A DNA stretch of 64,000 nucleotides from an uncultured Candidatus Saccharibacteria bacterium. Its GTDB lineage: Bacteria > Patescibacteriota > Minisyncoccia > Phycocordibacterales > Phycocordibacteraceae. The translations under genes were made by a program, and so were the position numbers. This document shows positions 26,677 through 57,986 of this stretch, one piece after another. The notes beneath the pieces are model-generated. The model did no database searches. It had not been told where the DNA came from and was given only the letters and a program-made list of their open reading frames with translations. The stretch is from NCBI GenBank assembly GCA_964398815.1, contig CAYNNZ010000002.1:207-64206 (forward strand), in the 5' to 3' direction. Within the stretch, counting starts at the first letter, position 1. The number at the start of each line of letters is the position of its first letter.

Positions 26677-29600
26677 TTAGCCATCAATCGCAGAGAGTGC
26701 GCGAGTAACCGCCAGCTTCACGCCGGTCGTTCCTGCCGTGTAGGTGGAATCAACTGCGGTCGAGAGCGAAGAGATGACGCGCTCGAGGAAACTTGGGTGG
26801 CAATTCTCGCAGACCTTTGCGATTTCCGGATGTACCGGAGCACCCTCGGTCTTTGCGCGGAACGCATCATCAAGCGCCATAGTCACGTGGGTGATGAACT
26901 CCTCCACGTTGCCGCCGGCCTTGTTGATGTCGCGAATCATGCCGAAGACCGCTTCCTTCTCACCTGCGAGAAGCGCAGTGATGAAGGATGGGACGTCGGT
27001 TGCAACAGGTGCTGCATGCGCGACTGGTGCTGCGTGCGCGATAGGCGCCGGTGCAACTTCCGCAACCGGTGCATGTACCGGAAGCGCAGGGACGAATCCG
27101 TGGTCTGCCTCGCGAGAGAGACCCTTCACGATGTCGTCGATGGTAAGCGCGCCGTTCTGTGCGAGAGACTTAAAGCCCTCGTAGCTTGCGTGTGTGCGTG
27201 CCGGAGCAGCGGCCGGAGCTGCACTATGCGCCACGTGGCGAGGTGCGGGCTCTGAAGCCGGTGCGTGGGTCACATGCGCACCTGCTGGTGCGTGCGAAGC
27301 CGGGATGGCTGCCGCATTGCGCTCTGCTCCATAGCCATGCGTATCGTCAGCATGGACCGGTGCGAGGCCGAGGCGCGCGAGCGCGAACGGTACGACACCA
27401 GCAATGATGAGGTATGCGGCTGCAAGCGATACGAGCGCGAGCATGAGCCAGTAGACTGCCGTACCGACAGGACCGAGGTCGAGACCGGTGTACGGGAGGT
27501 CAGAGAGGTAGACGTAGGTGAGCGGCTCGTCATGCACTATCGGGAGCGAATCAAGAACGATGCGCTGCTCAGTCTCGCGAACGCGGAGCGTTGCGGAACA
27601 GGTGATGACGTCACCGTTGTCGCCGTAGAAGGTTCCTTCATACGTGTACTTGCCCGGACCATTCGGCGAGACGCGGCGAGAACCGCCATCGGAGACGCTA
27701 CCGACTCCCTGATTGATGCGGACATGGTCCACATTGTCACTGTCCCAACGGAGGGTCGCATCTTCCCCATCATCGATGGTAGAAGGCGAAACGCTCATGG
27801 TGCAGGACGGACCAGGACGATGCGTATTCACCGTAACGGTGGTTGCGCAGGTCACGGTTCCGCCAGGACCCGTTGCCGTACCGGTGTAGGTGCGAGAACC
27901 GCCCGGAGTGACCGTGGTCGAACCGCTTGCTACCGGGCTCATAGAGCCGACACCCTGATCGATAACGAAGGAGGTCGCGTTCGAGGTATTCCACGTAAGC
28001 GTTGCCTGACCACCGTTAGAGATTGAGGACGGATTTGCGGAGAGCGAACAGGTCGGGCTCGGAGTCACGACGGTGACCGTTGCCTGACAATCAACGCTGC
28101 CGCCTGCACCTACTGCGTGAAGCGTGTAGGTCATGGTCGAGAGCGGCTGGACCGTACCCGAGCCGTTAAGCACGACGTTCGAGATGGTGATGCCGTTACT
28201 GACCGTTGCAGACGTTGCATTAGTCGTCGTCCACGTAAGGGTCGATGTGCCGCCGTAGTTCACTGACGTCGGTGACGCAGTGAGCGTACAGGTCGGTGCC
28301 GGAGGAGGCGGCTGTACGGTGACTGTGACAACCGTCGGGCACGAGACCGAACCGCCAGGACCTGTCGCCGTGAGCGTGTAGGTCGTAGTCTGCGTCGGTG
28401 TTACCACCTGCGTTCCTGCGGTTGCGACGCCGGTGCCGTTAAGAGCGACAGAGGTGGCATTCGTGGTCGACCACGAGAGGGTCGAAGACGAGCCCTGCTG
28501 CACAATCTGCGGATTCGCCGTGAGCGTACAGGTTGGTGCCGGAGGATTCACGACCGTAATGGTCTTCGTACAGTCGACCGATGCGCCGTTCGCGCCTACT
28601 GCGTGAAGCGTGTAGGTAGTGGTGACGGTCGGTGCGACTGCGAACGAACCTGACGTTGCGACGCTACCCACAGAGCTGATGGTGACGGTCGTAGCGTACT
28701 GAGTCGTCCACGAGAGCGTAGCTGCAGCGCCCTGCGTAATCGTCGACGGAGTTGCCTCAAGCGTACACTGCGGATTGGTCGGCGGGTTCACATAGATGAC
28801 TGCCGTACAATTCGCGCTGCCGCCAGGACCAGAGACCGTGAGCGTGTAGGTCGCGCTCTGGGTCGGTGCGACCTGCACTGAGCCGCCTGCGACCGGCGTG
28901 ACCGGGCCAACGCCAGAGAGGCTGCCCGAGGTTGCATTCACGCTCGTCCATACGAGGGTCGAAGTACCGCCCTGCGTAATAGAGGTCGGGCTTGCCGTGA
29001 GCGTACATGACGGAGGCGGAGGTGCGACCGTAACGACGACCGTTGCGGAACACGGGACGGACTGGCCGCCAGGGCCGTATGCGACGCCCGTGTAGGTAGT
29101 CGTCTGCTGCGGAGTCACCGTGCGTGAACCGCCAGAGACCGGCTGCACAGAACCGACACCCTGATCAATGGTGAACGACGTAGCGTACTGCGTAGACCAC
29201 GAGAGCGTTGCAGATGCTCCCTGCTGGATATTGTTCGGCGAGATGGTGAGCGTACAGACCGGAGGATTCGGCTGAACAACCTGAATGTCGGCCGTACAGG
29301 TCACCTGCTGTCCATCAGCGGAGGTCGCGACGAGCACGTAATGCGTATTTCCGTTCGGAGCTACGACACGTGAGCCGGAAGCCTGCACCTGACCAATGCC
29401 CTGATCAATCGTGATTGTGTTCGCGTTCTGGGTGTTCCAGACGAGCGTAGACGAGTTACCCGAGAGAATCGAGGTTGGGTTCGCGTTGAGCGAACAGGTC
29501 GGTGGCGGTGGTGGCTGATTCACGTTGACCGTTGCGTAGCAGTGCACCGTCTGACCAGTCGCGGACGTTGCGGTGAGGTCATACGTGGTCGTCCAATTCG

Positions 29601-31443
29601 GCGAGACCTGCATGGATGCGCTCGGAGAAACCTGACCAATGCCCTGATTAAGCGTTACGGTCTGCGCATTCTGGGTGGTCCAAGAAAGCGTTGCGGAACC
29701 GCCTGTCGTAATCGAGGTTGGATTTGCCATGAGCGTACACTGCGGCGGCGGCGGCGGCTGATTCACCGTTACGGATGCGTAGCAGTGGATGGTCTGGCCG
29801 TTATTACCTGTAACCGTGAGGTCATAGGTCGTCGACTGCGTCGGAGCGACGATACGAGAGCCGGAGGTCTGCACTCCACCAAAGCTGGTGAGAGAGACCG
29901 AAGATGCATTCTGCGTACCCCACGTGAGAGTCGAAGTGCCGCCCGTAGTAATAGAGGTCGGGCTCGCGGTGAGCGAACAGGTCGGAGGCGGCGGAGGCGT
30001 CGTCACCGTAACGGTCTTGTAGCAGTGCACCGTCTGGCCGGATGCGGACGTAGCCGCAAGGTCATAGGTGGTGGTCTGCGTCGGCGATGCCTGAACGGAG
30101 CCAGAGAGCGATACCGGACCGAATGCTGAGAGATTCACCGTAGCTGCATTCTGGGTGGTCCAAGAAAGCGTGGTGGAGCCACCTGCCTGAATAGTGACCG
30201 GGTTCGCGTTAAGCGTACACGCAGGCGGAGGCGGTGCCTGATTCACGTTGACCGTTGCGTAGCAGTGAATGGTCTGACCATTCGTACCCACGACGGAAAG
30301 GTCATAGGTAGTCGACTGCGTTGGACTAACGATGCGGGAACCCGCGGTCTGCACTGCACCAAAGCTGGTGAGTGTCGCAGAGGAAGCATTCGTCGTTCCC
30401 CACGTGAGAGTCGAGTTACCACCAGAGGTGATGGAAGTCGGGTTCGCCGTCATGGTACACGTCGGAGGATTCGAAGTGACCGTAACCGTTGCGTAACAAT
30501 GGACAACCTGACCATTCGTGCCCGTGACCGAAAGGTCATAGGTAGTCGATGTGTTCGGGTTCACGACACGTGAACCTGAGAGCTGCACTGCACCTACGGT
30601 CGAAAGCGATGCGGAGGATGCGTTCTGAGAGGTCCACGAGAGAGTCGAGGAACCGCCAGACGTGATAGCCGTCGGGCTCGCGGTAAGCGTACAGCTTGGC
30701 GGATTCTGGGAGACCGTAACAGTCGCCGTACAGTGAATGGTCTGACCGTTCGTTCCTGTGACCGAGAGGTCATAGGTGGTCGAGGTGTTCGGATTCACAA
30801 CGCGAGAACCCGAGAGCTGCACTGCGCCTACGGTCGAGAGCGATGCGGACGATGCATTCTGCGTGGTCCAGGAAAGCGTCGAAGTGCCGCCCGCAGTAAT
30901 AGCGGTCGGGTTAGCGGTGAGCGTACATGCCGGCTGCGGAGTGTTCACTGTCACAGTCGCGTGACAATGGACCGTGCCGGTCTCATTCGTCGCGGTGAGT
31001 TCGTACGTAGTGGTATGAGTCGGATAGACGAGGCGAGAGCCGTCGTCAGAAACGCCGCCGATGCCGTTATCGATGCTGACGGTATCAGCGTCAGTCGTGT
31101 TCCAGGTAAGGGTAGCGTTGCCACCGGTCAGGATGGAACCCGGAGTGATGTCGAGATCACAGACAGGAGCAGGCGGAGGGGTCGGCAGGGGCGTAGTGTC
31201 CACCGGAGGTGCAGCCGGAGGTGCCGGCGGCGGAGGAGGAGGCGGGGGCGGAGGTGGGGGTGGCGGAGGAGGAGGCGGGGGCGCGCAGCACGGAGGGCCG
31301 ACCTGGGCCATAACCTGGGAAGGCGTGACGAGACCAGCAGCAAACGCGATACCCATGCCGAGCGTGAAGACCGTAACCACGGTCAAAACGCCGACTAGAA
31401 TCGGCTTCTCCTTGGCGAACGTCACCTGTGTGTTGATGCTCAT
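26677..31443 (-). CDS. giant cell-surface protein (1588 aa) with Ig-like repeats and an internal LPYTG sorting motif
   Basis: From N to C: TM/signal; poly-Pro linker (about 19 Pro); 15 tandem Cys-bracketed Ig-like repeats of about 95 aa (consensus CTLTA.PTSIT.GG.STLSW...TTYDL...G....C.A.V.V); LPYTG at 27484-27498 followed by a TM segment and a ~270-aa Ala/Pro/His-rich plus folded cytoplasmic tail. Confidence 0.8.
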   Translation of the reverse strand: MSINTQVTFAKEKPILVGVLTVVTVFTLGMGIAFAAGLVTPSQVMAQVGPPCCAPPPPPPPPPPPPPPPPPPPAPPAAPPVDTTPLPTPPPAPVCDLDITPGSILTGGNATLTWNTTDADTVSIDNGIGGVSDDGSRLVYPTHTTTYELTATNETGTVHCHATVTVNTPQPACTLTANPTAITAGGTSTLSWTTQNASSASLSTVGAVQLSGSRVVNPNTSTTYDLSVTGTNGQTIHCTATVTVSQNPPSCTLTASPTAITSGGSSTLSWTSQNASSASLSTVGAVQLSGSRVVNPNTSTTYDLSVTGTNGQVVHCYATVTVTSNPPTCTMTANPTSITSGGNSTLTWGTTNASSATLTSFGAVQTAGSRIVSPTQSTTYDLSVVGTNGQTIHCYATVNVNQAPPPPACTLNANPVTIQAGGSTTLSWTTQNAATVNLSAFGPVSLSGSVQASPTQTTTYDLAATSASGQTVHCYKTVTVTTPPPPPTCSLTASPTSITTGGTSTLTWGTQNASSVSLTSFGGVQTSGSRIVAPTQSTTYDLTVTGNNGQTIHCYASVTVNQPPPPPQCTLMANPTSITTGGSATLSWTTQNAQTVTLNQGIGQVSPSASMQVSPNWTTTYDLTATSATGQTVHCYATVNVNQPPPPPTCSLNANPTSILSGNSSTLVWNTQNANTITIDQGIGQVQASGSRVVAPNGNTHYVLVATSADGQQVTCTADIQVVQPNPPVCTLTISPNNIQQGASATLSWSTQYATSFTIDQGVGSVQPVSGGSRTVTPQQTTTYTGVAYGPGGQSVPCSATVVVTVAPPPPSCTLTASPTSITQGGTSTLVWTSVNATSGSLSGVGPVTPVAGGSVQVAPTQSATYTLTVSGPGGSANCTAVIYVNPPTNPQCTLEATPSTITQGAAATLSWTTQYATTVTISSVGSVATSGSFAVAPTVTTTYTLHAVGANGASVDCTKTITVVNPPAPTCTLTANPQIVQQGSSSTLSWSTTNATSVALNGTGVATAGTQVVTPTQTTTYTLTATGPGGSVSCPTVVTVTVQPPPPAPTCTLTASPTSVNYGGTSTLTWTTTNATSATVSNGITISNVVLNGSGTVQPLSTMTYTLHAVGAGGSVDCQATVTVVTPSPTCSLSANPSSISNGGQATLTWNTSNATSFVIDQGVGSMSPVASGSTTVTPGGSRTYTGTATGPGGTVTCATTVTVNTHRPGPSCTMSVSPSTIDDGEDATLRWDSDNVDHVRINQGVGSVSDGGSRRVSPNGPGKYTYEGTFYGDNGDVITCSATLRVRETEQRIVLDSLPIVHDEPLTYVYLSDLPYTGLDLGPVGTAVYWLMLALVSLAAAYLIIAGVVPFALARLGLAPVHADDTHGYGAERNAAAIPASHAPAGAHVTHAPASEPAPRHVAHSAAPAAAPARTHASYEGFKSLAQNGALTIDDIVKGLSREADHGFVPALPVHAPVAEVAPAPIAHAAPVAHAAPVATDVPSFITALLAGEKEAVFGMIRDINKAGGNVEEFITHVTMALDDAFRAKTEGAPVHPEIAKVCENCHPSFLERVISSLSTAVDSTYTAGTTGVKLAVTRALSAIDG

Positions 31444-32698: not shown

Positions 32699-33361
32699 CT
32701 ACGAGCCTTGGCTCGCGGCAGGATAACTCTCTACCAGATGGGCAATGACCACGAAGCGGTCAGACTTGGTCTTGAATGAATCGCAGGTAACAAGGGTGAG
32801 CTTGTTGCCTTCGACCGTAAGCGGAACGCCGTCGCCAGTGTTCGCACTCGCAACCGTTTCAACCTCATATACATAGGTCTTCCCGGCCCCGGTGACCAAG
32901 ATGCGGTCACCATGCGCCAAATTCTGTATTCCGTCAAAGGCCTTAAACGCCTGATTATGAACGACCGGCAAGTAGCTGGAATGGCCGAAAATAAGCACGT
33001 TTCCGCCCTGCTGACCGAGGGTTCCAGAAGACGGATAGCGGACTGCCCCGTGGAGCAAATCGTTATCGAGCACCTCCGGATCTGCAGTCGTCGGATTGGC
33101 GACCGTGGCAGAGAGATTGATTTTCGGAATCTCGATTTTCTCCGGAAGAATCGCCACGCCCGCTGCCTCCAGCTGCTGCTGTTCCGTCGTGAGGACGGGA
33201 GCCGGAGCGGTTGTCTTACTTTCTGGAAGCAAATCAAAGGCCGAAAGCATCATCGTGAGTGACGCGAATACGACGATAGCTAGAGCCAAAAAGCTCCATT
33301 TCTGCGCCATAATCTTGCCGGCACCCTTCTTGGGTGCCTTGTTCGTTGCGTGTGATGCCAT
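32699..33361 (-). CDS. srt: sortase family transpeptidase
   Basis: N-terminal TM anchor. His in LIFGHSSY. TLVTCDSF Cys motif and a downstream Arg. Fold-level similarity to sortases. Confidence 0.8.
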   Translation of the reverse strand: MASHATNKAPKKGAGKIMAQKWSFLALAIVVFASLTMMLSAFDLLPESKTTAPAPVLTTEQQQLEAAGVAILPEKIEIPKINLSATVANPTTADPEVLDNDLLHGAVRYPSSGTLGQQGGNVLIFGHSSYLPVVHNQAFKAFDGIQNLAHGDRILVTGAGKTYVYEVETVASANTGDGVPLTVEGNKLTLVTCDSFKTKSDRFVVIAHLVESYPAASQGS

Positions 33362-34917: not shown

Positions 34918-36993
34918 TTATACGTCGATATTCGCCAACTTCGCGTTCGACTGGATGAACGACTTGCGGCTCGCCACATCCGTACCCATGAGCACATCGA
35001 AGATACGGTCAGCCTCTGCAGCGTCGTCTACCGTCACGCGCTTCAGAATGCGGCGGGCAGGGTCCATGGTGGTCTCCCAGAGTTCGGATGGATTCATCTC
35101 TCCGAGACCCTTGTAACGCTGTATGCGGTACTTGGTAGCAGCCTTCTTGGACACTACCTCCTCATCCTCGGCCTCTGCGCCTTCTTCAGGCTCCTCCCCT
35201 GCCTCGACTACTTCTTCCTTGCCGACGATGGCGTACTTCTCCTCGTCCGTGTATGCGTAATGGACTTCCTTGCCGCGCTGAATCTTATACAGAGGTGGCT
35301 GTGCGATGTAGATGTATCCACCATCGATAATTGCCTTGAAATGACGGAATAGGAGCGTGAGGATGAGCGTACGAATATGGGCGCCGTCCACGTCGGCGTC
35401 GGTCGCAATGATGACTTTGTGGTAGCGCAGCTTGGTGATATCGAACACGTCGCCAATGGCGGTACCGAGCGCAATCACAAGGTTCTTAATCTGCTCTGAG
35501 GCGAGCATCTTATCGAGACGCGCACGTTCGATATTGAGAATTTTTCCGCGAAGCGGAAGGATGGCCTGCATACGACGATCGCGACCAGTCTTGGCTGAGC
35601 CACCTGCGGAGTCTCCCTCCACAATGAAGAGCTCGCTCTCCTCTGCTGACTTACTCTGGCAGTCAGCAAGCTTGCCTGGGAGGGTCATGCCCTCGAGCGC
35701 GCCCTTACGCAGCACCGAGTCCTTTGCGGCCTTTGCGGCCTTACGCGCCTTAAGGGCGAGAAGTACCTTGTTTATGATTGCCTTAGCGTCATCTGGATTC
35801 TCCTCGAGGAACGACGCGAATGCGGTACCGAACACGGTAGCAGTCGCACCCTGCGCTTCAACAGAGCCGAGCTTGCCCTTGGTCTGACCTTCGAACTGAA
35901 TCTCCGGCATCTTTATCGAAATAACGGCCGTGATGCCCTCGAGCGCGTCGTCTCCCGTGAAGTTCTCCTCACTCTCTTTGAGAATGCCTGCCGAGCGGCC
36001 ATAGGAGTTGAGCGTACGCGTGAGCGCCGTCTTGAATCCGGTCACATGCGTACCGTGCTCAGGGTTATAAATATTGTTTGCAAATGCCATGAGGCGCGGC
36101 GTAAGGTCGTCCGTGTACTGGAGCGCAATTTCCACGGCAACATCCCCTTCTGCCTGGTCCACGTAGAAAATGTTCTTGTGCACCACCGTCTGATGCTTGT
36201 TGTAGAAACCGATGAGCGAACGCAGACCTCCCTCAAAGAAGAAGGTCATGGATGGGACCTCGAGCCCAATGTCGCGCAGGTAGAAGGCCTCCTCTGCTTC
36301 CATACCAGCGCGTGTGTCCTCGCGCGCATCAATAACGGTGATGCGCGTACCCTTCACGAGATACGCCTGCTGGCGCAGGTGCGAGACAATCTTGTCCCAA
36401 TTCCATTCAATACCGCCCGTGAAGATGGATTCGTCCGGACGGAACATCACGATGGAGCCGGTCTTCGTGGTCTTACCCACCTGCTTCACCTTCGCGACCG
36501 GCTTACCGATTTTGTATTCCTGCGTATGGACGGCTCCCTCCTTATGCACGAGCACGCGTGCGTTCGTTGAAAGCGCGTTCACCACGGAGGCGCCCACGCC
36601 ATGAAGACCGCCCGAGACTTTATAGCCGGAACCCTCACCGCCGAACTTACCACCAGCGTGAAGCGTGGTCATGATGGTCTCAAGCGCAGAGACTTTCGTC
36701 TTCGGGTGGATACCCACCGGGATACCGCGGCCGTTATCTACGACACGCACATAGCCCCCCGGAAGGAGTGCGACCTCGATATCGTCCGCAAAGCCACCCA
36801 TGGCTTCGTCGCGAGAGTTGTCGAAGATTTCCCAGATGAGGTGGTGGAGACCATCGGGACCTGTGGTACCGATATACATGCCCGGGCGCTTACGGACCGG
36901 CTCAAGCCCCTCAAGGACGGTGATGCTTGAGGCATCGTAATCGCCGCCTTTTTGGGCGGCCTTTTTAGGGGTTGTGGCCTTCTTTTCTGCCAT
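34918..36993 (-). CDS. gyrB: DNA gyrase subunit B
   Basis: VLEGLEPVRKRPGMYIGTTG, GHKL ATPase and TOPRIM motifs. 691 aa. Confidence 0.95.
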   Translation of the reverse strand: MAEKKATTPKKAAQKGGDYDASSITVLEGLEPVRKRPGMYIGTTGPDGLHHLIWEIFDNSRDEAMGGFADDIEVALLPGGYVRVVDNGRGIPVGIHPKTKVSALETIMTTLHAGGKFGGEGSGYKVSGGLHGVGASVVNALSTNARVLVHKEGAVHTQEYKIGKPVAKVKQVGKTTKTGSIVMFRPDESIFTGGIEWNWDKIVSHLRQQAYLVKGTRITVIDAREDTRAGMEAEEAFYLRDIGLEVPSMTFFFEGGLRSLIGFYNKHQTVVHKNIFYVDQAEGDVAVEIALQYTDDLTPRLMAFANNIYNPEHGTHVTGFKTALTRTLNSYGRSAGILKESEENFTGDDALEGITAVISIKMPEIQFEGQTKGKLGSVEAQGATATVFGTAFASFLEENPDDAKAIINKVLLALKARKAAKAAKDSVLRKGALEGMTLPGKLADCQSKSAEESELFIVEGDSAGGSAKTGRDRRMQAILPLRGKILNIERARLDKMLASEQIKNLVIALGTAIGDVFDITKLRYHKVIIATDADVDGAHIRTLILTLLFRHFKAIIDGGYIYIAQPPLYKIQRGKEVHYAYTDEEKYAIVGKEEVVEAGEEPEEGAEAEDEEVVSKKAATKYRIQRYKGLGEMNPSELWETTMDPARRILKRVTVDDAAEADRIFDVLMGTDVASRKSFIQSNAKLANIDV

Positions 36994-37060: not shown

Positions 37061-37426
37061 TTAGGCTTTGCGCGTAATGGTGACGCCAGGAACGCCGCTC
37101 TCCCATACCGCAGGCTTCTGAATTGAAATGGTGACCGTGAGCGCACGTGTCTCGCGCAGGATTCGCTCTGCGATTGTTTCTGCGAGTGACTCGATGAGGT
37201 GGCGGCTCTCGCGTGCAAAGGTATCGCGGACGATGTTCTTCAAGACGTCGTAATCGATGGTGTCGGAAATGGCATCCGACTGCCCTGCACGCAGAAGATG
37301 CGTGCCAACGTTGAGCGAGACGATGAAGTTCTGCTCCTTGCTTCGCTCTACCTCGTAATACCCGTGAGCGCCCGCGACTGAAAGCCCTTCGATAGTGAGG
37401 AAATCCATACGGTGGGAGGGTACCAC
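37061..37426 (-). CDS. folB: dihydroneopterin aldolase
   Basis: MDFLTIEGLSVAGAHGYYEVERSKEQNFIV... is a FolB-family pattern. 121 aa. Confidence 0.75.
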   Translation of the reverse strand: MVPSHRMDFLTIEGLSVAGAHGYYEVERSKEQNFIVSLNVGTHLLRAGQSDAISDTIDYDVLKNIVRDTFARESRHLIESLAETIAERILRETRALTVTISIQKPAVWESGVPGVTITRKA

Positions 37427-37536: not shown

Positions 37537-38691
37537 ATGGACATCAAAATCGACCGAAGCGATGAAATGCGACTGCGCGAGGAACTAGCAGCCCGCACCG
37601 ACGCCGAAGCGGCACGCATCAATCGCTATCTGGGCATGGCGGACCTCTCGCGTACTCCTGGCTCCCCGCTTTACGAAATCACCGAGCGCGTGAAGCAGGT
37701 CTCGGGACTCGCCAATTTCGATATTATCGAGATTCCTGAAATCGTCCCGGCCGACATTTCATTCGACCTGTTCGACTTCCCTGCCGACCATCCAGCACGG
37801 AGCACCTCGGACACCTACTACGTGGACGACAAGAACATCCTGCGCACGCACGATACGGTCTTCTGGTACTACTACCTCCAGCATCCGGAAATTAAGGCGC
37901 GCATCGAACGCGGCGAGTCCATGGGCGCGCTCTGCTACGGCAAGGTCTACCGCAAGGACGAGATTGATAGCCGCCACATGAACATCTTCCATCAGCTTGG
38001 TGGCTGGTATATCGCTCCGGAGAGCGAGAAGGTAGAGCCGGAGGACCTGAAGAATGTGCTCGGCGACATCGTGCATGCGGTATTCGGCCCTGACATGAAG
38101 CACCGGGTGAATGACGACACCTTCCCGTACACGGACCCATCCTTCGAAGTAGAGGTGAACGTGGCTGGTACGGCCGCAGAGGGTCCTGCGCGCGGCGAGT
38201 GGCTCGAAGTCCTGGGCAGCGGCATGCCGAAGGCAAGCGTGCTCAAGAAGATGGGTGTCGAGGGCTATCACGGCTGGGCCTTTGGATTCGGCATTGAGCG
38301 TCTCGCCATCATCTCGATGGCACTCCCGGACATCCGTCTCCTCTGGAGCACCGATGAGCGCATCAAGAAGCAGCTGGTGCTCGGGAATGCATTCAAGGAA
38401 GTCAGCAAGTATCCGCCCGTCGTCCGCGACATTTCCTTCATCGTGACCTCGGATTTCACGCCGAATAACTACTTCGACCTCGTGCGCGATGTCGCAGGCG
38501 ACCTCGTTGAGGAAGTAGCACTCTTGGACCGCTACGAAAACGAGGAGAAGTTCGGCGTCGGCAAGCTTTCCTACGCCTACCGCATCACGTACCGGTCCAT
38601 TGATCGCACCCTCACCTCAGAGGAAGTAGATGCGGTCCACAAGAAGCTGGAGGAGGCTACCACAGCCACATACGGCGCCCAGGTACGCTAA
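37537..38691 (+). CDS. pheS: phenylalanyl-tRNA synthetase alpha-like catalytic protein fused to a PheT-type FDX-ACB anticodon-binding domain (single-chain PheRS candidate)
   Basis: Class II core with FPYTDPSFEV and AFGFGIERLAII. A ~105-aa C-terminal extension KYPPVVRDISFIVTSD...LDRYEN...GKLSYAYRITYRSIDRTLTSEEV matches the FDX-ACB domain of PheT / mitochondrial PheRS. Confidence 0.85.
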   Translation: MDIKIDRSDEMRLREELAARTDAEAARINRYLGMADLSRTPGSPLYEITERVKQVSGLANFDIIEIPEIVPADISFDLFDFPADHPARSTSDTYYVDDKNILRTHDTVFWYYYLQHPEIKARIERGESMGALCYGKVYRKDEIDSRHMNIFHQLGGWYIAPESEKVEPEDLKNVLGDIVHAVFGPDMKHRVNDDTFPYTDPSFEVEVNVAGTAAEGPARGEWLEVLGSGMPKASVLKKMGVEGYHGWAFGFGIERLAIISMALPDIRLLWSTDERIKKQLVLGNAFKEVSKYPPVVRDISFIVTSDFTPNNYFDLVRDVAGDLVEEVALLDRYENEEKFGVGKLSYAYRITYRSIDRTLTSEEVDAVHKKLEEATTATYGAQVR

Positions 38692-38761
38692 GTCCTCAGG
38701 GGTAGAAAAAATCCCTGTATTTGCTACTGTTTTAGCATCGGGCTCGGGGAAAAGTGCCGCA

Positions 38762-38840
38762 GGCAAGGCATGGGCAGACAGTAAGCGCAGGCGTATTCCG
38801 TATACGACGGAGCGAGCTGGCGGGGCCCATAACGCAGACT
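38762..38840 (+). repeat. structured intergenic repeat, copy B
   Basis: ...AAGGCAUGGG...GCGUAUUCCGUAUACGACGGAGCGAG...GGGCCCAUAACGCAGAC. Track ORF 38754 reads through it. Confidence 0.5.
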
Positions 38841-38867
38841 GAGACGCTTTTAGCGGGCCCGCACTAT

Positions 38868-40109
38868 ATGCACCTAGAGTTTTTCGCCTATCCCTTTATT
38901 TTCCTCGGACTCTATTTCGAGGTTTTCATGATGCTCACCTTCCTATCGGCTCCTGCCAAGGAACGCCGTGCACGCCCCGCAGTCACTGCCAACACTCCTA
39001 AGGTCGCGATTATCGTCCCTTGCTGGAACGAGGAGAGCACCATCGGCGGCACCGTGAAGTCGCTCCTTGCACTCGACTACCCTGCCGACAAGCTACGTAT
39101 CATCCTCGTGAATGACGGCTCAACCGACAACACACGCTCCGTCATGGACTCCTATGTGGGTAATCCGCAGATTACCGTGGTGCATAAGGAGAACGGCGGC
39201 AAGCACACCGCAATCAATGCAGGAATTGATATCACTACCGACTGCGAATTCATTGGCTGTCTGGACGCTGATTCGTTTGTCGCACCGGATGCACTCCGCG
39301 AAATGATGAGCGCATTCGACGACCCCAAGGTGGGCGCATCGACCCCGGCCATGAGTGTGTTTGAGCCGAAAAATCTCCTCGAGCGCATGCAGAATGCGGA
39401 ATACATTTTTGGCATCGCGCTTCGCCACGCACTCTCAGCGGTGAATGGCATTTACGTAACTCCCGGACCTTTCTCGCTCTATCGCCGCTCAGTTATCGAG
39501 CAGGTAGGCGGCTTCCGTCATGCACACCAGGCAGAAGACATGGAAATGGCACTTCGGCTTCAGAAGGCTGGCTACGAAATTGAGAACGCGCCGCGAGCCC
39601 GCGTCTTCACCAAGGTTCCTCGCCAGGTCGGCAAACTCATCAAGCAGCGCACCCGCTGGACCACCGGATTCCTTAGGAACGTCATGGGTGATTACCGCGA
39701 GATGGTTGGTAACCCTAAGTACGGCATTCTCGGCCTCATGGTGCTGCCGCTCGGGTTCGTGGCGGTACTCGGGGGCGTAGGGCTCTTCCTGCTCGCCATC
39801 CTCATGCTCGGGTCTGACCTCATCCACACCGCAATCGTGACCTCAGGAGTGCCATTCCTCTTCATCATTACCCCACGCTTCTCGGTCGAATGGTTCTATG
39901 CCCCGATGACCTTCATTACGGTCATCAGCTTTGTCGTGATGATTATTTCTACGTCGTTCATCATCATGGGACAATACGTATCACGCACGCGCACCGACCT
40001 CACGATGAGCATATTGGGCTATGCACTTCTCTACGGATTCATTGCGCCGTTCTGGCTCGTGCGTGCACTTACGGATGTGGCGACTAATACCAAACGCGCT
40101 TGGCGCTAA
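38868..40109 (+). CDS. family 2 glycosyltransferase, membrane-integrated (processive synthase-like)
   Basis: DGSTDNT, DAD and QRTRW motifs. N- and C-terminal TM helices. Start taken at MHLEFFAYPF; the track ORF begins earlier inside repeat B. Confidence 0.8.
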   Translation: MHLEFFAYPFIFLGLYFEVFMMLTFLSAPAKERRARPAVTANTPKVAIIVPCWNEESTIGGTVKSLLALDYPADKLRIILVNDGSTDNTRSVMDSYVGNPQITVVHKENGGKHTAINAGIDITTDCEFIGCLDADSFVAPDALREMMSAFDDPKVGASTPAMSVFEPKNLLERMQNAEYIFGIALRHALSAVNGIYVTPGPFSLYRRSVIEQVGGFRHAHQAEDMEMALRLQKAGYEIENAPRARVFTKVPRQVGKLIKQRTRWTTGFLRNVMGDYREMVGNPKYGILGLMVLPLGFVAVLGGVGLFLLAILMLGSDLIHTAIVTSGVPFLFIITPRFSVEWFYAPMTFITVISFVVMIISTSFIIMGQYVSRTRTDLTMSILGYALLYGFIAPFWLVRALTDVATNTKRAWR

Positions 40110-40832: not shown

Positions 40833-40908
40833 GCCGAGATAGCTCAGTTGGTAGAGCAACGCACTTGTAATGCGTAGGTCGCGAGTTCAAATCTCGCTCT
40901 CGGCTCCA
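40833..40908 (+). tRNA. tRNA-Thr (anticodon TGT)
   Basis: GCCGAGAUAGCUCAGUUGGUAGAGCAACGCACUUGUAAUGCGUAGGUCGCGAGUUCAAAUCUCGCUCUCGGCUCCA. Cloverleaf with a 7-bp acceptor stem, GG in the D-loop, anticodon loop CU-UGU-AA, and a TΨC-loop UUCAAAU; CCA is encoded. Confidence 0.85.
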
Positions 40909-40956: not shown

Positions 40957-41355
40957 ATGGAGGTACTTCACTGCCTGCAGTGCAGGAATGAGTTACTAAA
41001 ACGTCACCAAAAGAAGTACTGCTCCAATAAATGTCAGGCTGATTTCCAGTATTCCCTTTTTAAGAAAGAGTGGTTGAGTGGCACCCGCACTGTCGTTACA
41101 AAAAATATCTCCGCACACATCAAGCGCTATTTAATCGAAACACATGGGGAGAAATGCATGCAATGTGGTTGGGCCACTAGGCATAGTTTAACTAAAAGAG
41201 TGCCTTTGGAGGCAGACCATATTGACGGAAACTCCGACAACAATTCGAGAAAGAACCTGCGTCTTCTTTGTCCAAACTGCCACTCCCTCACCACCTCATT
41301 CCGTAACCTTAACAGAGGTCGTGGTAGGAATTGGAGAAACAAGCAAGGTGATTAG
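40957..41355 (+). CDS. HNH endonuclease (free-standing) in a low-GC islet next to tRNA-Thr
   Basis: Paired CxxC zinc knuckles (CLQC...CSNKC; CMQCGW...CPNCH) and an HNH core EADHIDGNSDNNSRKNLRLLCPNCH. Local GC about 45% versus about 58% in the flanks. Confidence 0.75.
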   Translation: MEVLHCLQCRNELLKRHQKKYCSNKCQADFQYSLFKKEWLSGTRTVVTKNISAHIKRYLIETHGEKCMQCGWATRHSLTKRVPLEADHIDGNSDNNSRKNLRLLCPNCHSLTTSFRNLNRGRGRNWRNKQGD

Positions 41356-44689: not shown

Positions 44690-46036
44690 TTATCCGCCCA
44701 AGGTGTCGATATCTGACTGATACTGAGCCGCAAAATCCATCACGCTATTGGCATAGGCCTGACCGGCCGTAGCCCAATTCCCTCCTGCATAGTATTTCGC
44801 AGCTGCGGTGTGTTCCGCGTTATAGGAGCCACCGGCACCCCCTACGGCCGAGAGGTAGAGACCCGTCGCGGTAATGGCATGGAGCGGATTCCATGGGTCG
44901 GCCGCTGAAATACCCAACGCCTTCTCTATTTGCGGCTTAAGTCCAATCCACGTGGATGGGATGAACTGAGTCGGACCCATGGCGCCACCATATCCATTCC
45001 CCTGAGGACAGGAGACGGCCGTTGTTTTCCAGTCGCGCCCGAGGTCATCCATGATGGTCTTGAACGGGACGGTGTCGCGCGGCGACTTCATGACCCCTGT
45101 CGCTGCGTTTGAGTTTCCTGTTCCAAAGCCGGTCGCGAGGTCGGTCACATAGCACCTGCCCACGTTCGAACCGAGATTCGACTCCTGTCGCAAAATGGCA
45201 AGAATGAATGCCGCCCGCACTCCGGTAATACGTGATGAGGTCTTTGCGTATTCAATAGCGGTTGGGAGCGGTATCTGACCGCCACCACCTGCAAGTGCGA
45301 ACAATTCCGAACGAATCTGCGCGGCAGTCTTCTGCTTCGTCGCAACAATCTGCTGATACAGATTCTCCTGTCCCTTGGTAGCAGTGAGTAGCTGCTGCTT
45401 AGCATTCTGTTGATCCTGAACTTTCTTCTTTGCCTCCAGCTGCAGCTGCGCCACCTGCTGCTGCTGCTTACGCTGCTCTTCCAGCTCATCCTTTTCCGCC
45501 TCAGCCTGCAACTTCGTGCCAGTAATGACTTCATAGGAATCCCCAAGCGACTGCTTCACGAATGCGTACGAGTCGAGGTCCCCGAACAACTTGCTGATGT
45601 CGTCTGCAGAAAACGCGAGCTCGACGAGAGACATATTGTCGATTTCTTCGGTACGGCGAAGTATCTGCGCAAGCGACTCTTTCTCGTTCGAGAGCTTGGT
45701 TGAGAGCGACGTGATGGTCCTCTGATGTACGGAAATATTCGAATCAATCTGCTTGATGGCGACCTGAGTGGCCTGCACCTGCAGCTGCGCCTTCTTGATC
45801 TGTGCATTCAGTGTCGCAACCTCGGTCGAAAGCGACTTACCCTGCGAAGCAAGCTTGTCGACCATCGCCTGGTTCTCAGCGATTTCAGACTCGAGCTGGT
45901 TCAACTGGCTCTGCAGCTGCGCGCGCCGGTCGTCGGTCGACTGCGCGAACAGCACATGCGGCAGGACTGCACCTGCGGTAAGCGCAATGATGAGAATGCC
46001 TACGAATAGGGCTGGTAGAGAGAACCTGAGGCGCAT
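44690..46036 (-). CDS. secreted coiled-coil protein with C-terminal lytic transglycosylase (MltB/SLT_2-like) domain, paralog 1
   Basis: Signal/TM. About 230 aa of Gln/Glu-rich coiled coil. C-terminal LRQESNLG...GGAMGPTQFIPSTW...YYAGG. About 75-80% identical to 56549..57907. Confidence 0.7.
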   Translation of the reverse strand: MRLRFSLPALFVGILIIALTAGAVLPHVLFAQSTDDRRAQLQSQLNQLESEIAENQAMVDKLASQGKSLSTEVATLNAQIKKAQLQVQATQVAIKQIDSNISVHQRTITSLSTKLSNEKESLAQILRRTEEIDNMSLVELAFSADDISKLFGDLDSYAFVKQSLGDSYEVITGTKLQAEAEKDELEEQRKQQQQVAQLQLEAKKKVQDQQNAKQQLLTATKGQENLYQQIVATKQKTAAQIRSELFALAGGGGQIPLPTAIEYAKTSSRITGVRAAFILAILRQESNLGSNVGRCYVTDLATGFGTGNSNAATGVMKSPRDTVPFKTIMDDLGRDWKTTAVSCPQGNGYGGAMGPTQFIPSTWIGLKPQIEKALGISAADPWNPLHAITATGLYLSAVGGAGGSYNAEHTAAAKYYAGGNWATAGQAYANSVMDFAAQYQSDIDTLGG

Positions 46037-46059
46037 ATCTTGTATATTCTAGCAGACGT

Positions 46060-46096
46060 AAAAAGAGCCGATTCCTTGCAGAATCGGCTCTTTTTA
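46060..46096 (-). terminator. Rho-independent terminator downstream of rplY copy 1
   Basis: aaaaagagccgattc-cttgcag-aatcggctcttttt. Confidence 0.5.
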
Positions 46097-46130
46097 TCTA
46101 CCTGGGCGCCTGAAGACGCAGAAATATTTT

Positions 46131-46220
46131 GGATGCGAGGCGCGGGAAATTTCTGAGCGCAGGCGTATTCCGTATACGACGGAGCGAGGAAATGGGTCCC
46201 GCAACAACGCAGACAGGATG
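46131..46220 (+). repeat. structured intergenic repeat, copy E (absent from the paralogous locus at 57908-57986)
   Basis: GAUGCGAGGCGCGGG...GCGUAUUCCGUAUACGACGGAGCGAG...GGGUCCCGCAACAACGCAGAC. Track ORF 46129 reads through it. Confidence 0.55.
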
Positions 46221-46221
46221 T

Positions 46222-46866
46222 TTATGCGTCTTCCGTAGACTCTTCAGTCTCCTTGCCCTTACCTTCGACTTCGATACTATCCATATCCGGAGCAGCAGAA
46301 TCCTCCTCCTTCTCTTCCTCAATAGCCTGAGCAAGTGCGACTACCTCCTCGCCATCCACCTTCACAGTGACGCCTGCAGGAATCTTGAGGTCTGACACGC
46401 GGATTTGGTCACCCTCAGCAGCAAGTGCCGACATGTCGACTTCAATCTCGTGCGGAAGGTTAGCGGGGTCTGCCTCGATTTCGAGTTCATGCATAACCTT
46501 CACAATATTCATGCCGAGCTTAACGGCCGGAGCCTCACCGATGAATGAGAGCGGCACCGCGACCTCGACTTTCGCGCCCTTCTCGATTGCGTAGAGGTCC
46601 GCATGACGCGGGAGATTCGTGACTGGGTCAAAATCAACGTCATGAATGAGCACCTGCATGTCAGCACCGAGTCCGGTGAGCGAAATGACGGAAGACTCAC
46701 CTGCGTCGCGGAGAATCTTCTTAAATTCTCCTGCCTCGAGCGAAATGGAGGTTGCGTCCTGCTTCGGTCCATAAACAACCGCAGGAATACGGCCTACTGC
46801 GGCAAGTGCGCGTCCAGCTTCCTTACCGGTCGCCTCGCGCGTCTGTGCGTTCAAAGTAATAGTCAT
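46222..46866 (-). CDS. rplY: 50S ribosomal protein L25 / general stress protein Ctc, copy 1
   Basis: MTITLNAQTREATGKEAGRALAAVGRIPAVVYG... plus an acidic tail. Paralog at 57987..58631. Confidence 0.85.
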   Translation of the reverse strand: MTITLNAQTREATGKEAGRALAAVGRIPAVVYGPKQDATSISLEAGEFKKILRDAGESSVISLTGLGADMQVLIHDVDFDPVTNLPRHADLYAIEKGAKVEVAVPLSFIGEAPAVKLGMNIVKVMHELEIEADPANLPHEIEVDMSALAAEGDQIRVSDLKIPAGVTVKVDGEEVVALAQAIEEEKEEDSAAPDMDSIEVEGKGKETEESTEDA

Positions 46867-46920
46867 ATAGAGGTATGTAGTACCTGCCGAGTATGCCGGA
46901 AATAGGCCGTTCTGGCAATA

Positions 46921-52525: not shown

Positions 52526-52529
52526 ACGG

Positions 52530-57907: not shown

Positions 57908-57934
57908 ACTATTGTTTCAAGTATATCAGACGGA

Positions 57935-57969: not shown

Positions 57970-57986
57970 GACGCACAAAAGGGGTT

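What the first reader, a model, noticed from the sequence alone, without database searches (positions are those of the whole stretch)
37537..38691. PheS catalytic core fused to the PheT-type FDX-ACB anticodon-binding domain (mitochondrial-like single-chain PheRS?)
Bacterial PheRS is an alpha2beta2 enzyme. The FDX-ACB domain, signature ...P.VRD(L/I)(S/A)(F/L)(I/V)V...D.Y.....GK.S.A(Y/F)R(I/L)T(Y/F)RS.DRTLT.EEV, is normally the C-terminus of the beta subunit PheT. Here a 384-aa protein carries the class II PheS core (FPYTDPSFEV, AFGFGIERLAII) followed directly by this domain. It also has only a short N-terminal region. This is the architecture of monomeric mitochondrial PheRS (FARS2). No pheT is adjacent.
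Basis: partly seen in the sequence, partly recalled or inferred. Interest (0 to 1): 0.65.

Follow-up and report, generated by a model that had tools for sequence, protein, structure and literature searches.

The report
Single-chain mitochondrial-type PheRS in a Parcubacterium
This candidate-phyla-radiation bacterium makes its phenylalanyl-tRNA synthetase as one 384-residue chain (catalytic core plus anticodon-binding domain), the design textbooks reserve for mitochondria, so the "mitochondrial" form of this enzyme also exists in a large group of bacteria and their viruses.

Summary
ORF 37537-38691 (+) encodes 384 aa with PF01409 (residues 42-279, E 5.5e-51) followed directly by PF03147 FDX-ACB (290-384, E 5e-22). 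It has no PheS N-terminal coiled coil. An AlphaFold model (pLDDT 94.6) superposes over its full length on human mitochondrial PheRS (TM 0.77).

The gene is not an artefact. Orthologues at 59-87% identity occur in at least 183 Patescibacteria species genomes, in conserved housekeeping synteny and under strong purifying selection. A more distant branch occurs in code-25 Gracilibacteria. Related single-chain forms occur in huge phages and giant viruses.

No PheT is found in the window or in 1.36 Mb of related loci. Published marker counts for a near-complete genome carrying a 78%-identical orthologue show exactly one PF01409 hit and one FDX-ACB hit, which leaves no room for a canonical PheT there.

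Most likely this is the cell's only PheRS, working without a beta subunit and without the B3/B4 editing domain. This clade carries a specific active-site swap (RTH-D-T / FHQxG-G). Monomeric activity and absence of pheT in this particular genome remain untested. I found no paper that describes this. I rate it a new member of a known kind, of moderate to high interest.

The parts
37537..38691 (+). Gene for the single-chain PheRS (384 aa plus stop codon)
   Evidence: ORF listing. Pfam PF01409 plus PF03147. AF2 model with pLDDT 94.6 and pTM 0.90. The gene is 100% identical at nucleotide level in three other metagenome contigs.
37537..37671 (+). Short N-terminal helical region (aa 1-45) in place of the roughly 100-aa PheS coiled-coil arm
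   Evidence: No PF02912 hit. Model helices at residues 8-19 and 23-33. This region is alignable only to P0121 and the Oligoflexia homologue, not to E. coli PheS or FARS2.
37660..38373 (+). Class II PheS-type catalytic module (aa 42-279)
   Evidence: PF01409, E 5.5e-51. It is 32% identical to E. coli PheS (122 bits) and 34% identical to Branchiostoma FARS2 (125 bits).
37843..37857 (+). RTHDT loop (aa 103-107). His105 and Thr107 correspond to Mtb alphaHis175 and alphaSer177. Asp106 is specific to this clade.
   Evidence: Alignment. Motif census. Residue roles in M. tuberculosis PheRS from PMC8136816.
37942..38004 (+). Motif 2 region KVYRKDEIDSRHMNIFHQLGG (aa 136-156), with Arg139 and Gln153 conserved. 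Gly155 replaces the otherwise conserved Glu/Asp (Mtb alphaGlu217).
38122..38142 (+). FPYTDPS (aa 196-202), the wall of the phenylalanine ring pocket. Phe196, Tyr198 and Thr199 correspond to Mtb alphaPhe255, alphaPhe257 and alphaThr258.
38275..38307 (+). Motif 3 WAFGFGIERLA (aa 247-257). Ala248 corresponds to Mtb alphaAla305 at the pocket bottom, and Arg255 is the motif 3 arginine.
   Evidence: G250 and R255 are invariant, and A248 is more than 90% conserved, across 75 diverse homologues.
38374..38403 (+). Junction/linker (aa 280-289) between the PheS C-terminus (DIRLLWS.DERIKKQ) and the ACB domain
   Evidence: The junction window (aa 255-310) aligns without a break, and at nearly the same length, to plant and animal FARS2 and to a huge-phage homologue (41-52% identity). 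The E. coli PheS sequence ends here.
38404..38688 (+). FDX-ACB (PheT B8-type) anticodon-binding domain (aa 290-384)
   Evidence: PF03147 matched over its full length, E 5e-22. It is 40-44% identical to the ACB of mitochondrial-type enzymes but 28% identical to the E. coli PheT B8 domain.
38697..38717 (+). Weak terminator-like hairpin 6 nt after the stop codon
   Evidence: Consensus scan only. Function not established.
34918..36993 (-). gyrB, the conserved upstream neighbour (context)
   Evidence: Present in 57 of 80 related loci. Pfam domains on orthologous loci.
38754..40109 (+). Family-2 glycosyltransferase, the conserved downstream neighbour (context). The real start is probably near 38868.
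   Evidence: Pfam. Present in 44 of 80 related loci. Called as 413 aa on L087.

Best explanation
The gene encodes the housekeeping phenylalanyl-tRNA synthetase of a Paceibacteria/Parcubacteria (CPR) bacterium, built as a single chain.

Proposed mechanism:
- The class II catalytic module binds Phe and ATP, forms Phe-AMP and transfers Phe to tRNA-Phe.
- The C-terminal ferredoxin-fold domain, homologous to domain B8 of PheT, reads the GAA anticodon.
- As in human mitochondrial PheRS, the two domains probably pack against each other in a closed resting state and swing apart on a hinge to admit tRNA.
- No beta subunit is needed. The enzyme therefore has no B3/B4 editing site, no B5 domain and no alpha-subunit coiled-coil arm, and Tyr-tRNA-Phe cannot be proofread in cis.

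In this clade the conserved acidic residue of the FHQxE/D-G strand is Gly, and an Asp appears in the RTH-x-S/T loop. I read this as a relocation of the carboxylate near the substrate amino group.

Shown: architecture, fold, conservation, synteny, absence of a neighbouring pheT, and the single PF01409 and FDX-ACB hits in a related genome.
Inferred: monomeric activity, hinge motion, lack of editing, and the role of Asp106.
For: Domain architecture.

Best solved relatives are human mitochondrial PheRS, E about 1e-58, against 1.6e-33 for the best bacterial PheS.

The AF2 model (pLDDT 94.6, pTM 0.90) matches the closed form 3cmq/5mgv over both domains (TM 0.77/0.73, rmsd 3.4 A). It matches the open tRNA complex 3tup less well (TM 0.58).

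Eight of the ten residues that line the Phe/amino-group site in M. tuberculosis PheRS (PMC8136816) are kept or conservatively replaced: H105, T107, R139, Q153, F196, Y198, T199 and A248.

Family evidence:
- 6807 database proteins reach E<=1e-10, and all of the top 120 carry both domains.
- 183 GTDB species genomes matched narrow query-specific peptide patterns, and 80 of these loci were fetched.
- 92 of 384 positions are at least 98% conserved across 82 sequences.
- pN is 0.13-0.17 while pS is 0.67-0.83, and dN/dS is about 0.10 where dS can be estimated.
- Neighbours are conserved housekeeping genes: gyrB, EF-Ts, S2 and RF1.
- Each locus has one PheS-like gene.

No PheT outside the ACB region was found in 1.36 Mb of window plus related loci.

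C7867-001, the source of the 78%-identical P0031, has exactly one tRNA-synt_2d hit and one FDX-ACB hit. Across 17 Parcubacteria genomes FDX-ACB is never found twice (PMC4508563 Table S2). pheS but not pheT appears in that study's core-gene table.

Fused homologues stand alone, without an adjacent PheT, on huge-phage and giant-virus contigs. This argues that the architecture works on its own.

A monomeric enzyme of this architecture is fully active in mitochondria (PMC3275996).
Against: - The whole genome behind this window could not be read, so a distant pheT in this organism is not formally excluded.
- The C7867-001 argument rests on draft-genome marker counts from another study.
- The protein scores below the curated cutoffs of every PheRS model: TIGR00469 218.9 against 258.35, and TIGR00468 153.7 against 237.45. 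Its top NCBIfam hit is a family that curators call a 'mystery ligase', NF051887, at 222.5 against 300.
- Two residues of the amino-group network are changed: Glu to Gly155 and Gln to Trp110.
- The D/G swap is probably a single evolutionary event, so its perfect association across about 195 sequences is not independent evidence.
- No tRNA-Phe gene lies in the window.
- No biochemistry exists.
Confidence: 0.78

Rival explanations
1. The protein is an alpha-type subunit that has merely captured the B8 domain. It still assembles with a PheT-like beta subunit, possibly one lacking B8, encoded elsewhere in the genome.
For: Many CPR bacteria do encode PheRS beta, often without the B2 domain (PMC5370408). 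The whole genome of this organism was not searchable. In Doudnabacteria-type loci a free-standing PheT-B2-like tRNA_bind protein sits directly upstream of the fused gene, so pieces of PheT can persist as separate genes. The B5 marker column of PMC4508563 Table S2 is cut off in the stored copy.
Against: The N-terminal coiled coil of the alpha subunit is absent. No PheT B1/B3-B7 sequence occurs in 1.36 Mb of related loci. pheT is not in the Parcubacteria core table although pheS is. FDX-ACB is single-copy in all 16 genomes where it is found. The same architecture is autonomous in mitochondria, and it stands alone on phage genomes.
Confidence: 0.08
2. The protein is a PheS-derived paralogue with a function outside translation, for example an SrmL-like 'mystery ligase' or an aminoacyl donor for another pathway. 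Canonical PheST would then do the housekeeping job.
For: The best NCBIfam hit is NF051887, 'PheS-related mystery ligase SrmL' (222.5 bits). An otherwise conserved active-site Glu is replaced by Gly, and Gln by Trp. A fused homologue occurs in an Oligoflexia MAG in a non-housekeeping context.
Against: The score is below the SrmL cutoff of 300. There is one PF01409 gene per genome in 15 of 17 Parcubacteria genomes and one per locus here, so no other PheS exists to do the housekeeping job. The Phe-ring pocket residues, the motif 2 and 3 arginines and the anticodon-binding domain are all conserved. The synteny is housekeeping. Purifying selection is strong.
Confidence: 0.06
3. The gene is a recent horizontal acquisition of a eukaryotic FARS2 or of a phage gene, not an old CPR trait. 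It would be a curiosity of one lineage.
For: The architecture was previously known only from organelles. Closely related forms exist in huge phages and giant viruses.
Against: CPR sequences form their own group. This group includes deeply divergent code-25 Gracilibacteria at 36-44% identity and is separated from the eukaryote plus virus group in 96-99% of bootstraps. Synteny with gyrB is conserved across at least 57 species. GC content and codon use were not anomalous.
Confidence: 0.05
4. The fusion is an assembly or gene-calling artefact, for example a frameshifted or chimeric join of pheS and the 3' end of pheT.
For: None, beyond the general possibility in MAG data. The window does show one oddity elsewhere, a diverged duplicated block with a GC shift.
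Against: The same uninterrupted ORF occurs in hundreds of independent assemblies. It is 100% identical at nucleotide level in three other samples. It folds into a confident two-domain model.
Confidence: 0.01

Closest known systems
Mitochondrial phenylalanyl-tRNA synthetase (human FARS2, yeast MSF1; TIGR00469; PDB 3CMQ, 3TUP)
   Same: A single chain made of the PheS catalytic module plus a PheT-B8-type FDX-ACB domain. The junction is at the same place and of nearly the same length. There is no coiled-coil arm and no editing domain. The full-length fold matches the closed state (TM 0.77). The ACB domain is 40-44% identical.
   Different: It is bacterial, chromosomal and cytoplasmic, and lacks the insertion that splits the alignment to FARS2 into two stretches. 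It scores below the TIGR00469 cutoff. It belongs to a CPR-type group separate from the eukaryote plus virus group. It carries the RTH-D-T / FHQxG-G active-site variant, whereas FARS2 keeps RxHTS / FHQxE.
Canonical bacterial (alpha-beta)2 PheRS (PheS TIGR00468 plus PheT TIGR00472)
   Same: The catalytic core is homologous to PheS (32% identity to E. coli, with the same motifs 2 and 3 and the same Phe pocket). The C-terminal domain is homologous to the last approximately 100 residues of PheT.
   Different: It has no PF02912 N-terminal domain, no adjacent pheT, and none of domains B1-B7, which include the B3/B4 editing site. It scores below both curated cutoffs.
NCBIfam NF051887, 'PheS-related mystery ligase SrmL'
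   Same: It is the top-scoring NCBIfam model. The match spans both the core and the ACB region (residues 59-374 against profile positions 31-345 of 349), so SrmL appears to have the same two-domain architecture.
   Different: The score of 222.5 is below the cutoff of 300. No relative tested reached 300. I found nothing about SrmL in the literature, so its function and context could not be compared.
Single-chain PheRS genes of huge phages and giant viruses (e.g. JGI contig Ga0210003_1000004; IMG/VR UViGs; Yasminevirus)
   Same: The phage genes have the same core-plus-ACB architecture in proteins of about 340-375 aa. They stand alone without a PheT.
   Different: They are only 30-39% identical. 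In the NJ tree they group with the eukaryotic sequences, not with the CPR group. They keep the ancestral FHQxD/E-G motif. Several pass the TIGR00469 cutoff. The Yasminevirus protein P0243 gave only a weak, partial ACB match in my comparisons.

Membership tests
Mitochondrial-type single-chain PheRS (architecture class) | One polypeptide containing the PheS class II catalytic module directly followed by an FDX-ACB (B8-type) domain | tested here: met
   PF01409 at 42-279 plus PF03147 at 290-384. The junction is homologous to that of FARS2.
Mitochondrial-type single-chain PheRS (architecture class) | Absence of the alpha-subunit N-terminal coiled coil and of beta-subunit domains B1-B7 (no editing site) | tested here: met
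   No PF02912 hit. Only about 45 residues precede the core. TIGR00472 is matched only at profile positions 698-798.
Mitochondrial-type single-chain PheRS (architecture class) | Three-dimensional arrangement of the two domains as in solved mitochondrial PheRS | tested here: met
   The AF2 model (pLDDT 94.6) against 3cmq and 5mgv gives TM 0.77/0.73 and rmsd 3.4 A over about 395 columns. This compares a prediction with a crystal structure.
Mitochondrial-type single-chain PheRS (architecture class) | Active as a monomer without any beta subunit; no pheT in the genome | tested here: inconclusive
   No PheT in the window or in 85 related loci. The related genome C7867-001 has a single FDX-ACB hit and a single tRNA-synt_2d hit. 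This organism's full genome and the enzyme's activity could not be tested.
TIGR00469 pheS_mito (NCBIfam equivalog for eukaryotic mitochondrial PheRS) | Whole-protein score at or above the curated cutoff of 258.35 bits | tested here: not met
   218.9 bits. The 60%-identical relative P0121 reaches 264.3 and phage homologues reach 283-308, so the family lies at the edge of the model.
TIGR00469 pheS_mito (NCBIfam equivalog for eukaryotic mitochondrial PheRS) | Orthology with eukaryotic FARS2/MSF1 (nested in or sister within the eukaryotic clade) | tested here: not met
   In NJ bootstraps the eukaryote plus virus sequences separate from the CPR-type and canonical sequences in 96-99% of replicates. 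The method is weak (NJ, three outgroups).
Canonical bacterial PheS alpha subunit (TIGR00468) | Score at or above 237.45 bits; PF02912 N-terminal domain; pheT partner, usually adjacent | tested here: not met
   153.7 bits. No PF02912 hit. No adjacent pheT in 86 loci.
Phenylalanine-specific class IIc synthetase (function) | Conserved motif 2 and 3 arginines and Phe-pocket residues (Mtb alphaArg201, Gln215, Phe255, Phe257, Thr258, Ala305, His175, Ser177, Glu217, Gln180) | tested here: inconclusive
   Eight of ten are kept or conservatively replaced. Glu217 becomes Gly155 and Gln180 becomes Trp110, with a clade-specific Asp106 nearby. The substrate was not assayed.
SrmL, PheS-related mystery ligase (NF051887) | Score at or above the curated cutoff of 300 bits | tested here: not met
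   222.5 bits.
SrmL, PheS-related mystery ligase (NF051887) | Genomic context or co-occurrence that defines SrmL | not testable with these tools
   No description of SrmL was found, and no member above the cutoff was recovered.

The most novel reading that the evidence does not exclude
A large part of the Candidate Phyla Radiation (Paceibacteria and code-25 Gracilibacteria at least) translates Phe codons with a single-chain, editing-free PheRS as its only PheRS. On this reading the alpha-B8 chimera long regarded as a mitochondrial invention arose once in the bacterial/phage world. Eukaryotes would then have acquired their mitochondrial enzyme from that pool, possibly from a phage, as is proposed for the mitochondrial RNA polymerase and the replicative helicase.
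Probability: 0.3. Interest if true: 0.8.

Novelty: new member of a known kind. Interest (0 to 1): 0.58.

Why it matters
[quoted passage not shown] They describe the mitochondrial enzyme as the only class II synthetase core that works as a monomer (PMC3275996; PMC9976931).

A whole bacterial radiation, together with huge phages, that uses the single-chain form would revise that picture. It would have several consequences:
- It would supply non-organellar relatives with which to date and root the alpha-B8 fusion.
- It would offer compact, potentially orthogonal PheRS scaffolds for genetic-code engineering.
- It would imply that these ultra-small bacteria translate without PheRS proofreading of tyrosine or meta-tyrosine, which bears on how much mistranslation reduced genomes tolerate.

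There is also a practical point. Marker-gene sets that count FDX-ACB as "pheT" and PF01409 as "pheS" score one gene twice in these genomes. The TIGR00468 and TIGR00472 models, which I recall from memory (not checked here) are part of the GTDB bac120 set, both miss this protein at their cutoffs.

Tried and rejected
1. Whole-genome search for pheT. This was not possible. The one genome-contig scan went on locating orthologues. Complete genomes CP174359.1 and OY970354.1 can only be read within 10 kb of the hit, and the fetch of an annotated region does not hold them.

2. Obtaining a CPR PheT sequence to use as a query. The closest hits without an ACB domain turned out to be giant-virus or unnamed proteins. 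The homologues of the B2-like ORF are all proteins of at most 162 aa. The only PheT recovered (L132) lies beside a canonical PheS on a short 'viral' contig.

3. Literature. Ten searches found no paper on a bacterial or CPR single-chain PheRS and nothing on SrmL. The Vampirococcus paper and its supplements were uninformative. The Parcubacteria core table lacks pheT, but it also lacks alaS, ileS, proS and glyS by gene symbol, so that absence alone is weak evidence.

4. Regulatory RNA upstream. There was no Rfam hit (no T-box or leader) and no sigma-70-like promoter.

5. First NJ tree without an outgroup. It was star-like. Adding E. coli PheS alone gave only 58% support for the root position. The final tree with three canonical sequences is still NJ on simple distances and is not decisive.

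6. dN/dS. Synonymous sites are saturated for most pairs, so only two ratios could be computed.

7. Asp106-Gly155 proximity. This was not checked because model coordinates are not exposed.
Full report
**1. The observation**

Pfam finds the PheS class II core PF01409 at residues 42-279 (E 5.5e-51). It finds the ferredoxin-fold anticodon-binding domain PF03147 over its full length at residues 290-384 (E 5e-22). The PheS N-terminal domain PF02912 is not detected even at E<=1. The quoted motifs are present: FPYTDPS at aa 196-202 and WAFGFGIERLA at aa 247-257. These matches are far beyond chance. The overlapping minus-strand ORFs are spurious. The real neighbours are folB (37061-37426, -), gyrB (34918-36993, -) and a family-2 glycosyltransferase (38754-40109, +).

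**2. The organism and its surroundings**

The window is a housekeeping stretch of a small-genome bacterium. It carries rpoB, RNase R, SMC, dnaE, ThrRS, trmD, S16, RNase III, NusB, L32, RNase HII, EF-Ts, S2, RF1, sortase and giant CARDB surface proteins. Close homologues of the target are named Parcubacteria, Kaiserbacteria, Paceibacteria, Zambryskibacteria, Nomurabacteria, Colwellbacteria, Vogelbacteria, Doudnabacteria and Minisyncoccia. The organism therefore belongs to Paceibacteria/Parcubacteria within the Candidate Phyla Radiation.

**3. A real, conserved gene**

- 6807 database proteins reach E<=1e-10, and every one of the 120 listed carries both domains at 74-99% identity.
- A scan of one genome per species with six query-specific peptide patterns found 183 relatives. 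Eighty loci were fetched, including the complete genomes CP174359.1 (721 kb) and OY970354.1 (829 kb).
- Each locus holds one PheS-like gene.
- Across 82 sequences, 92 of 384 positions are at least 98% conserved.
- Against orthologues at 77-83% amino-acid identity, synonymous sites are saturated (pS 0.67-0.83) while pN is 0.13-0.17. Where dS can be computed, dN/dS is about 0.10.
- gyrB lies nearby in 57 of 80 loci, and the glycosyltransferase, EF-Ts, S2 and RF1 in about 40 each. Many of these contigs are short.
- The identical nucleotide sequence occurs in three other metagenomes.

An assembly or frameshift artefact is excluded.

**4. What it resembles**

By sequence, the best solved relatives are human mitochondrial PheRS entries (E about 1e-58). 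Bacterial PheS chains follow at 1.6e-33 or weaker, and PheT chains match only residues 281-384.

An AlphaFold2 model built on a 75-sequence alignment is confident (pLDDT 94.6, pTM 0.90). Foldseek ranks the closed-state human mitochondrial PheRS structures first, with both domains superposed: TM 0.77/0.73 and rmsd 3.4 A over about 395 columns. The open tRNA complex 3TUP scores TM 0.58, and bacterial alpha chains cover only the core (TMq about 0.53).

Dissecting the similarity by region gives the following.

| Region | Comparison | Identity |
|---|---|---|
| Core | E. coli PheS | 32% (122 bits) |
| Core | Branchiostoma (lancelet) FARS2 | 34% (125 bits) |
| ACB domain | mitochondrial-type ACB domains | 40-44% |
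| ACB domain | E. coli PheT B8 | 28% |

The junction aligns without a break, and at nearly the same length, to plant, animal and phage single-chain enzymes. The fused arrangement is therefore homologous to the mitochondrial type and is not an independent look-alike.

**5. Family membership**

The protein fails every curated NCBIfam cutoff.

| Model | Score (bits) | Cutoff (bits) |
|---|---|---|
| NF051887 "PheS-related mystery ligase SrmL" | 222.5 | 300 |
| TIGR00469 pheS_mito | 218.9 | 258.35 |
| TIGR00468 pheS | 153.7 | 237.45 |

A 60%-identical relative, P0121, just passes TIGR00469 at 264.3, and phage homologues pass clearly.

I built neighbour-joining trees with 200 bootstraps and three canonical PheS sequences. 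Canonical PheS forms one group (92-96%). Eukaryote-plus-virus fused proteins separate from everything else (96-99%). The CPR-type fused proteins form a third group with 65-68% support, or 82% on the core alone without one stray sequence. This group contains Paceibacteria, Gracilibacteria, other Patescibacteria and one Oligoflexia MAG.

This pattern is compatible with a single fusion followed by a split into a CPR-type lineage and a mitochondrial/viral-type lineage. The method is weak, however, and the root is not settled. I therefore file the protein under the single-chain architecture class and not as an orthologue of FARS2.

**6. Is there a PheT elsewhere?**

In the data I could read directly:
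- tblastn with E. coli PheT and with a second PheT found nothing outside the ACB domain in the window or in 85 related loci (1.36 Mb). The only exception is the small B2-like ORF described in section 9.
- Pfam scans of the window ORFs show no B5, B3_4 or tRNA_bind domain.
- Whole genomes could not be fetched.

Published data help. Nelson and Stegen (PMC4508563) counted Pfam single-copy markers in 17 Parcubacteria genomes:
- tRNA-synt_2d is hit in 17 of 17 genomes, once per genome in 15 of them.
- FDX-ACB, which they labelled pheT, is hit in 16 genomes with 16 hits in total, so never twice in one genome.

One of those genomes, C7867-001, is the source of P0031, a two-domain protein 78% identical to ours. 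Its single fused gene accounts for both marker hits. No other FDX-ACB protein, and hence no canonical PheT, was detected in that near-complete assembly, and no second PheS either. Their core-gene table lists pheS in 16 genomes and 13 other synthetase genes, but no pheT or COG0072. That table also lacks a few other synthetases by gene symbol, so this second point is weak.

**7. Active site**

M. tuberculosis PheRS holds the phenyl ring with alphaPhe255, Phe257, Thr258, Ala305 and Arg201. It holds the substrate amino group with His175 and, through water, with Gln215 and Glu217. Glu217 is itself networked to Ser177 and Gln180 (PMC8136816).

The equivalents here are F196, Y198, T199, A248, R139, H105, Q153, G155, T107 and W110. 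Eight of the ten are kept or conservatively replaced. The acidic residue is Gly, and Gln180 is Trp.

About 195 Paceibacteria sequences read RTH-D-T together with FHQxG(G/A). Seven basal ones, including P0121-like sequences, read RTH-(T/N)-T together with FHQxD-G. Nearly all eukaryotic, viral and other relatives keep E/D at the second site and never have D at the first. An apparent "L...G" class was a regex artefact in the N-terminal helix.

I interpret this as a relocation of the carboxylate within the amino-group network. It is probably a single event at the base of the clade, so the association is not statistical proof. I could not measure the geometry.

**8. Mechanism**

Taking these results together, the most likely reading (confidence 0.78) is an autonomous single-chain PheRS. 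The core makes Phe-AMP and transfers Phe to tRNA-Phe. The C-terminal domain reads the anticodon. A closed-to-open hinge motion admits the tRNA, as in the human enzyme. That motion is inferred from the model's match to the closed state.

The chain has no B3/B4 domain, so cis-editing of Tyr-tRNA-Phe is impossible. Fidelity must rest on the synthetic site or on unknown trans factors. The same genome's ThrRS keeps its editing-domain motif (section 9), so this is not a blanket loss of proofreading.

The rival explanations are: an alpha subunit that still needs a distant PheT (0.08), a non-translational paralogue (0.06), a recent horizontal acquisition (0.05) and an artefact (0.01).

**9. Wider distribution and things seen on the way**

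- **Gracilibacteria.** P0131-type fused proteins (36-44% identical) are named Gracilibacteria or "gcode 4". The gene on L136 has 13 in-frame TGA codons, several at conserved glycines of motif 3, which is the signature of code 25.
- **Huge phages and giant viruses.** P0147 lies on a 494-kb contig with terminase, a homing endonuclease, T4-type RNA ligase and PNKP. A scan of IMG/VR found 46 loci, and 44 of them carry a fused single-chain PheRS without an adjacent PheT. Many of these sit on contigs of 200-536 kb or on giant-virus MAGs.
- **Doudnabacteria-type loci.** A 135-aa stand-alone tRNA_bind protein, similar to PheT domain B2, sits immediately upstream of the fused gene. This protein family has 663 database members, and all 120 listed are at most 162 aa.

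**10. Novelty**

The reviews I read still describe three PheRS forms, with the monomer confined to mitochondria (PMC3275996; PMC9976931). Ten full-text searches found no description of a bacterial single-chain PheRS. The sequences themselves have been public for years under the label "PheS alpha subunit".

I rate this a new member of a known kind. The architecture and probable mechanism are those of mitochondrial PheRS. It is found as the apparent housekeeping enzyme of a large bacterial radiation and carries its own active-site variant. I score interest at 0.58. A synthetase specialist would be surprised, and the finding makes the origin of the mitochondrial enzyme testable. The key claims, that it is the sole PheRS and that it is active as a monomer, still need a whole-genome check and biochemistry.

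Noticed in passing
L081 9583-9990; L085 8671-9096; L068 4631-5026 (related loci, not in the window): In Doudnabacteria-type genomes a stand-alone ORF of about 135 aa sits immediately upstream of the fused PheRS gene on the same strand. It has a PF01588 tRNA_bind domain similar to PheT domain B2 (E. coli PheT residues 41-151). The family has 663 database members; all 120 listed are at most 162 aa, and JGI often mislabels them 'PheRS beta chain'. It could be a trans-acting tRNA-binding helper for the single-chain enzyme.
   Followed up: partly
L004 10001-11104 (JGI Ga0210003_1000004, 494 kb); L090-L134 (IMG/VR): Single-chain PheRS genes (core plus FDX-ACB, about 340-375 aa) are common on huge-phage contigs of 200-536 kb and on giant-virus MAGs. 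They have no PheT next to them, except for L132, which is a canonical PheS-PheT pair. Several pass the 'mitochondrial' TIGR00469 cutoff. In an NJ tree they group with eukaryotic FARS2, not with the CPR group.
   Followed up: partly
L136 9463-10833: A Gracilibacteria homologue of the fused PheRS contains 13 in-frame TGA codons. Several fall at conserved glycines of motif 3 (AFGI*VERIA, N*RAFG). This indicates genetic code 25 (UGA = Gly), although the database translated them as Trp. The gene sits beside an F-type ATP synthase operon on a 32% GC contig.
   Followed up: partly
window 37852-37854 (Asp106) and 37999-38001 (Gly155): There is a clade-specific coupled substitution in the amino-acid binding site. 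About 195 Paceibacteria sequences read RTH-D-T with FHQxG(G/A). Seven basal relatives, and nearly all eukaryotic, viral and canonical sequences, keep T/M/A at the first site and E/D at the second. It is probably one evolutionary event. The structural meaning was not verified.
   Followed up: partly
window 44690-47919 versus 56549-59717: A three-gene block is present twice: class I fructose-bisphosphate aldolase, ribosomal protein L25/Ctc, and a 450-aa SLT-like protein. The copies share about 70% nucleotide and 75-80% amino-acid identity. GC falls from about 0.55-0.60 to about 0.49-0.52 beyond roughly 52 kb. This is either an old segmental duplication, which would be odd for L25 in a tiny genome, or a chimeric or concatenated assembly of two related organisms.
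   Followed up: partly
window 24675-26420 (+): The ThrRS is 581 aa and starts directly at what looks, from my memory of E. coli ThrRS (not checked here), like the N2 editing-domain motif (KRHTLAHLLAAAV...GPAIDTGFYY; weak PF07973 hit). It lacks the N-terminal TGS domain. Editing therefore seems to be kept in ThrRS, while PheRS has no editing domain.
   Followed up: partly
window 40833-40908 and 40957-41355: The only RNA gene in the window is tRNA-Thr(UGU). It is followed immediately by a 132-aa HNH endonuclease ORF, which may be a small mobile or homing element next to the tRNA.
   Followed up: no
window 26677-31443 (-) and 47939-52612 (-): There are two giant ORFs of 1588 aa and 1557 aa. The first has no Pfam match at all. 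The second has six CARDB repeats. A sortase gene (32699-33361) lies nearby. They are probably cell-surface adhesins typical of episymbiotic CPR bacteria.
   Followed up: no
L005 10001-11245 (Oligoflexia MAG JAIBBV010000034.1): A 414-aa fused PheRS homologue (44% identical) is annotated in a non-CPR Oligoflexia MAG, in a non-housekeeping neighbourhood. It may reflect horizontal transfer, a paralogue alongside canonical PheST, or bin contamination.
   Followed up: no
PMC4508563 Table S2 (literature): Single-copy marker sets that count FDX-ACB as 'pheT' and tRNA-synt_2d as 'pheS' score the same fused gene twice in Parcubacteria. Completeness estimates and 'pheT present' calls for these genomes are therefore misleading.
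   Followed up: partly
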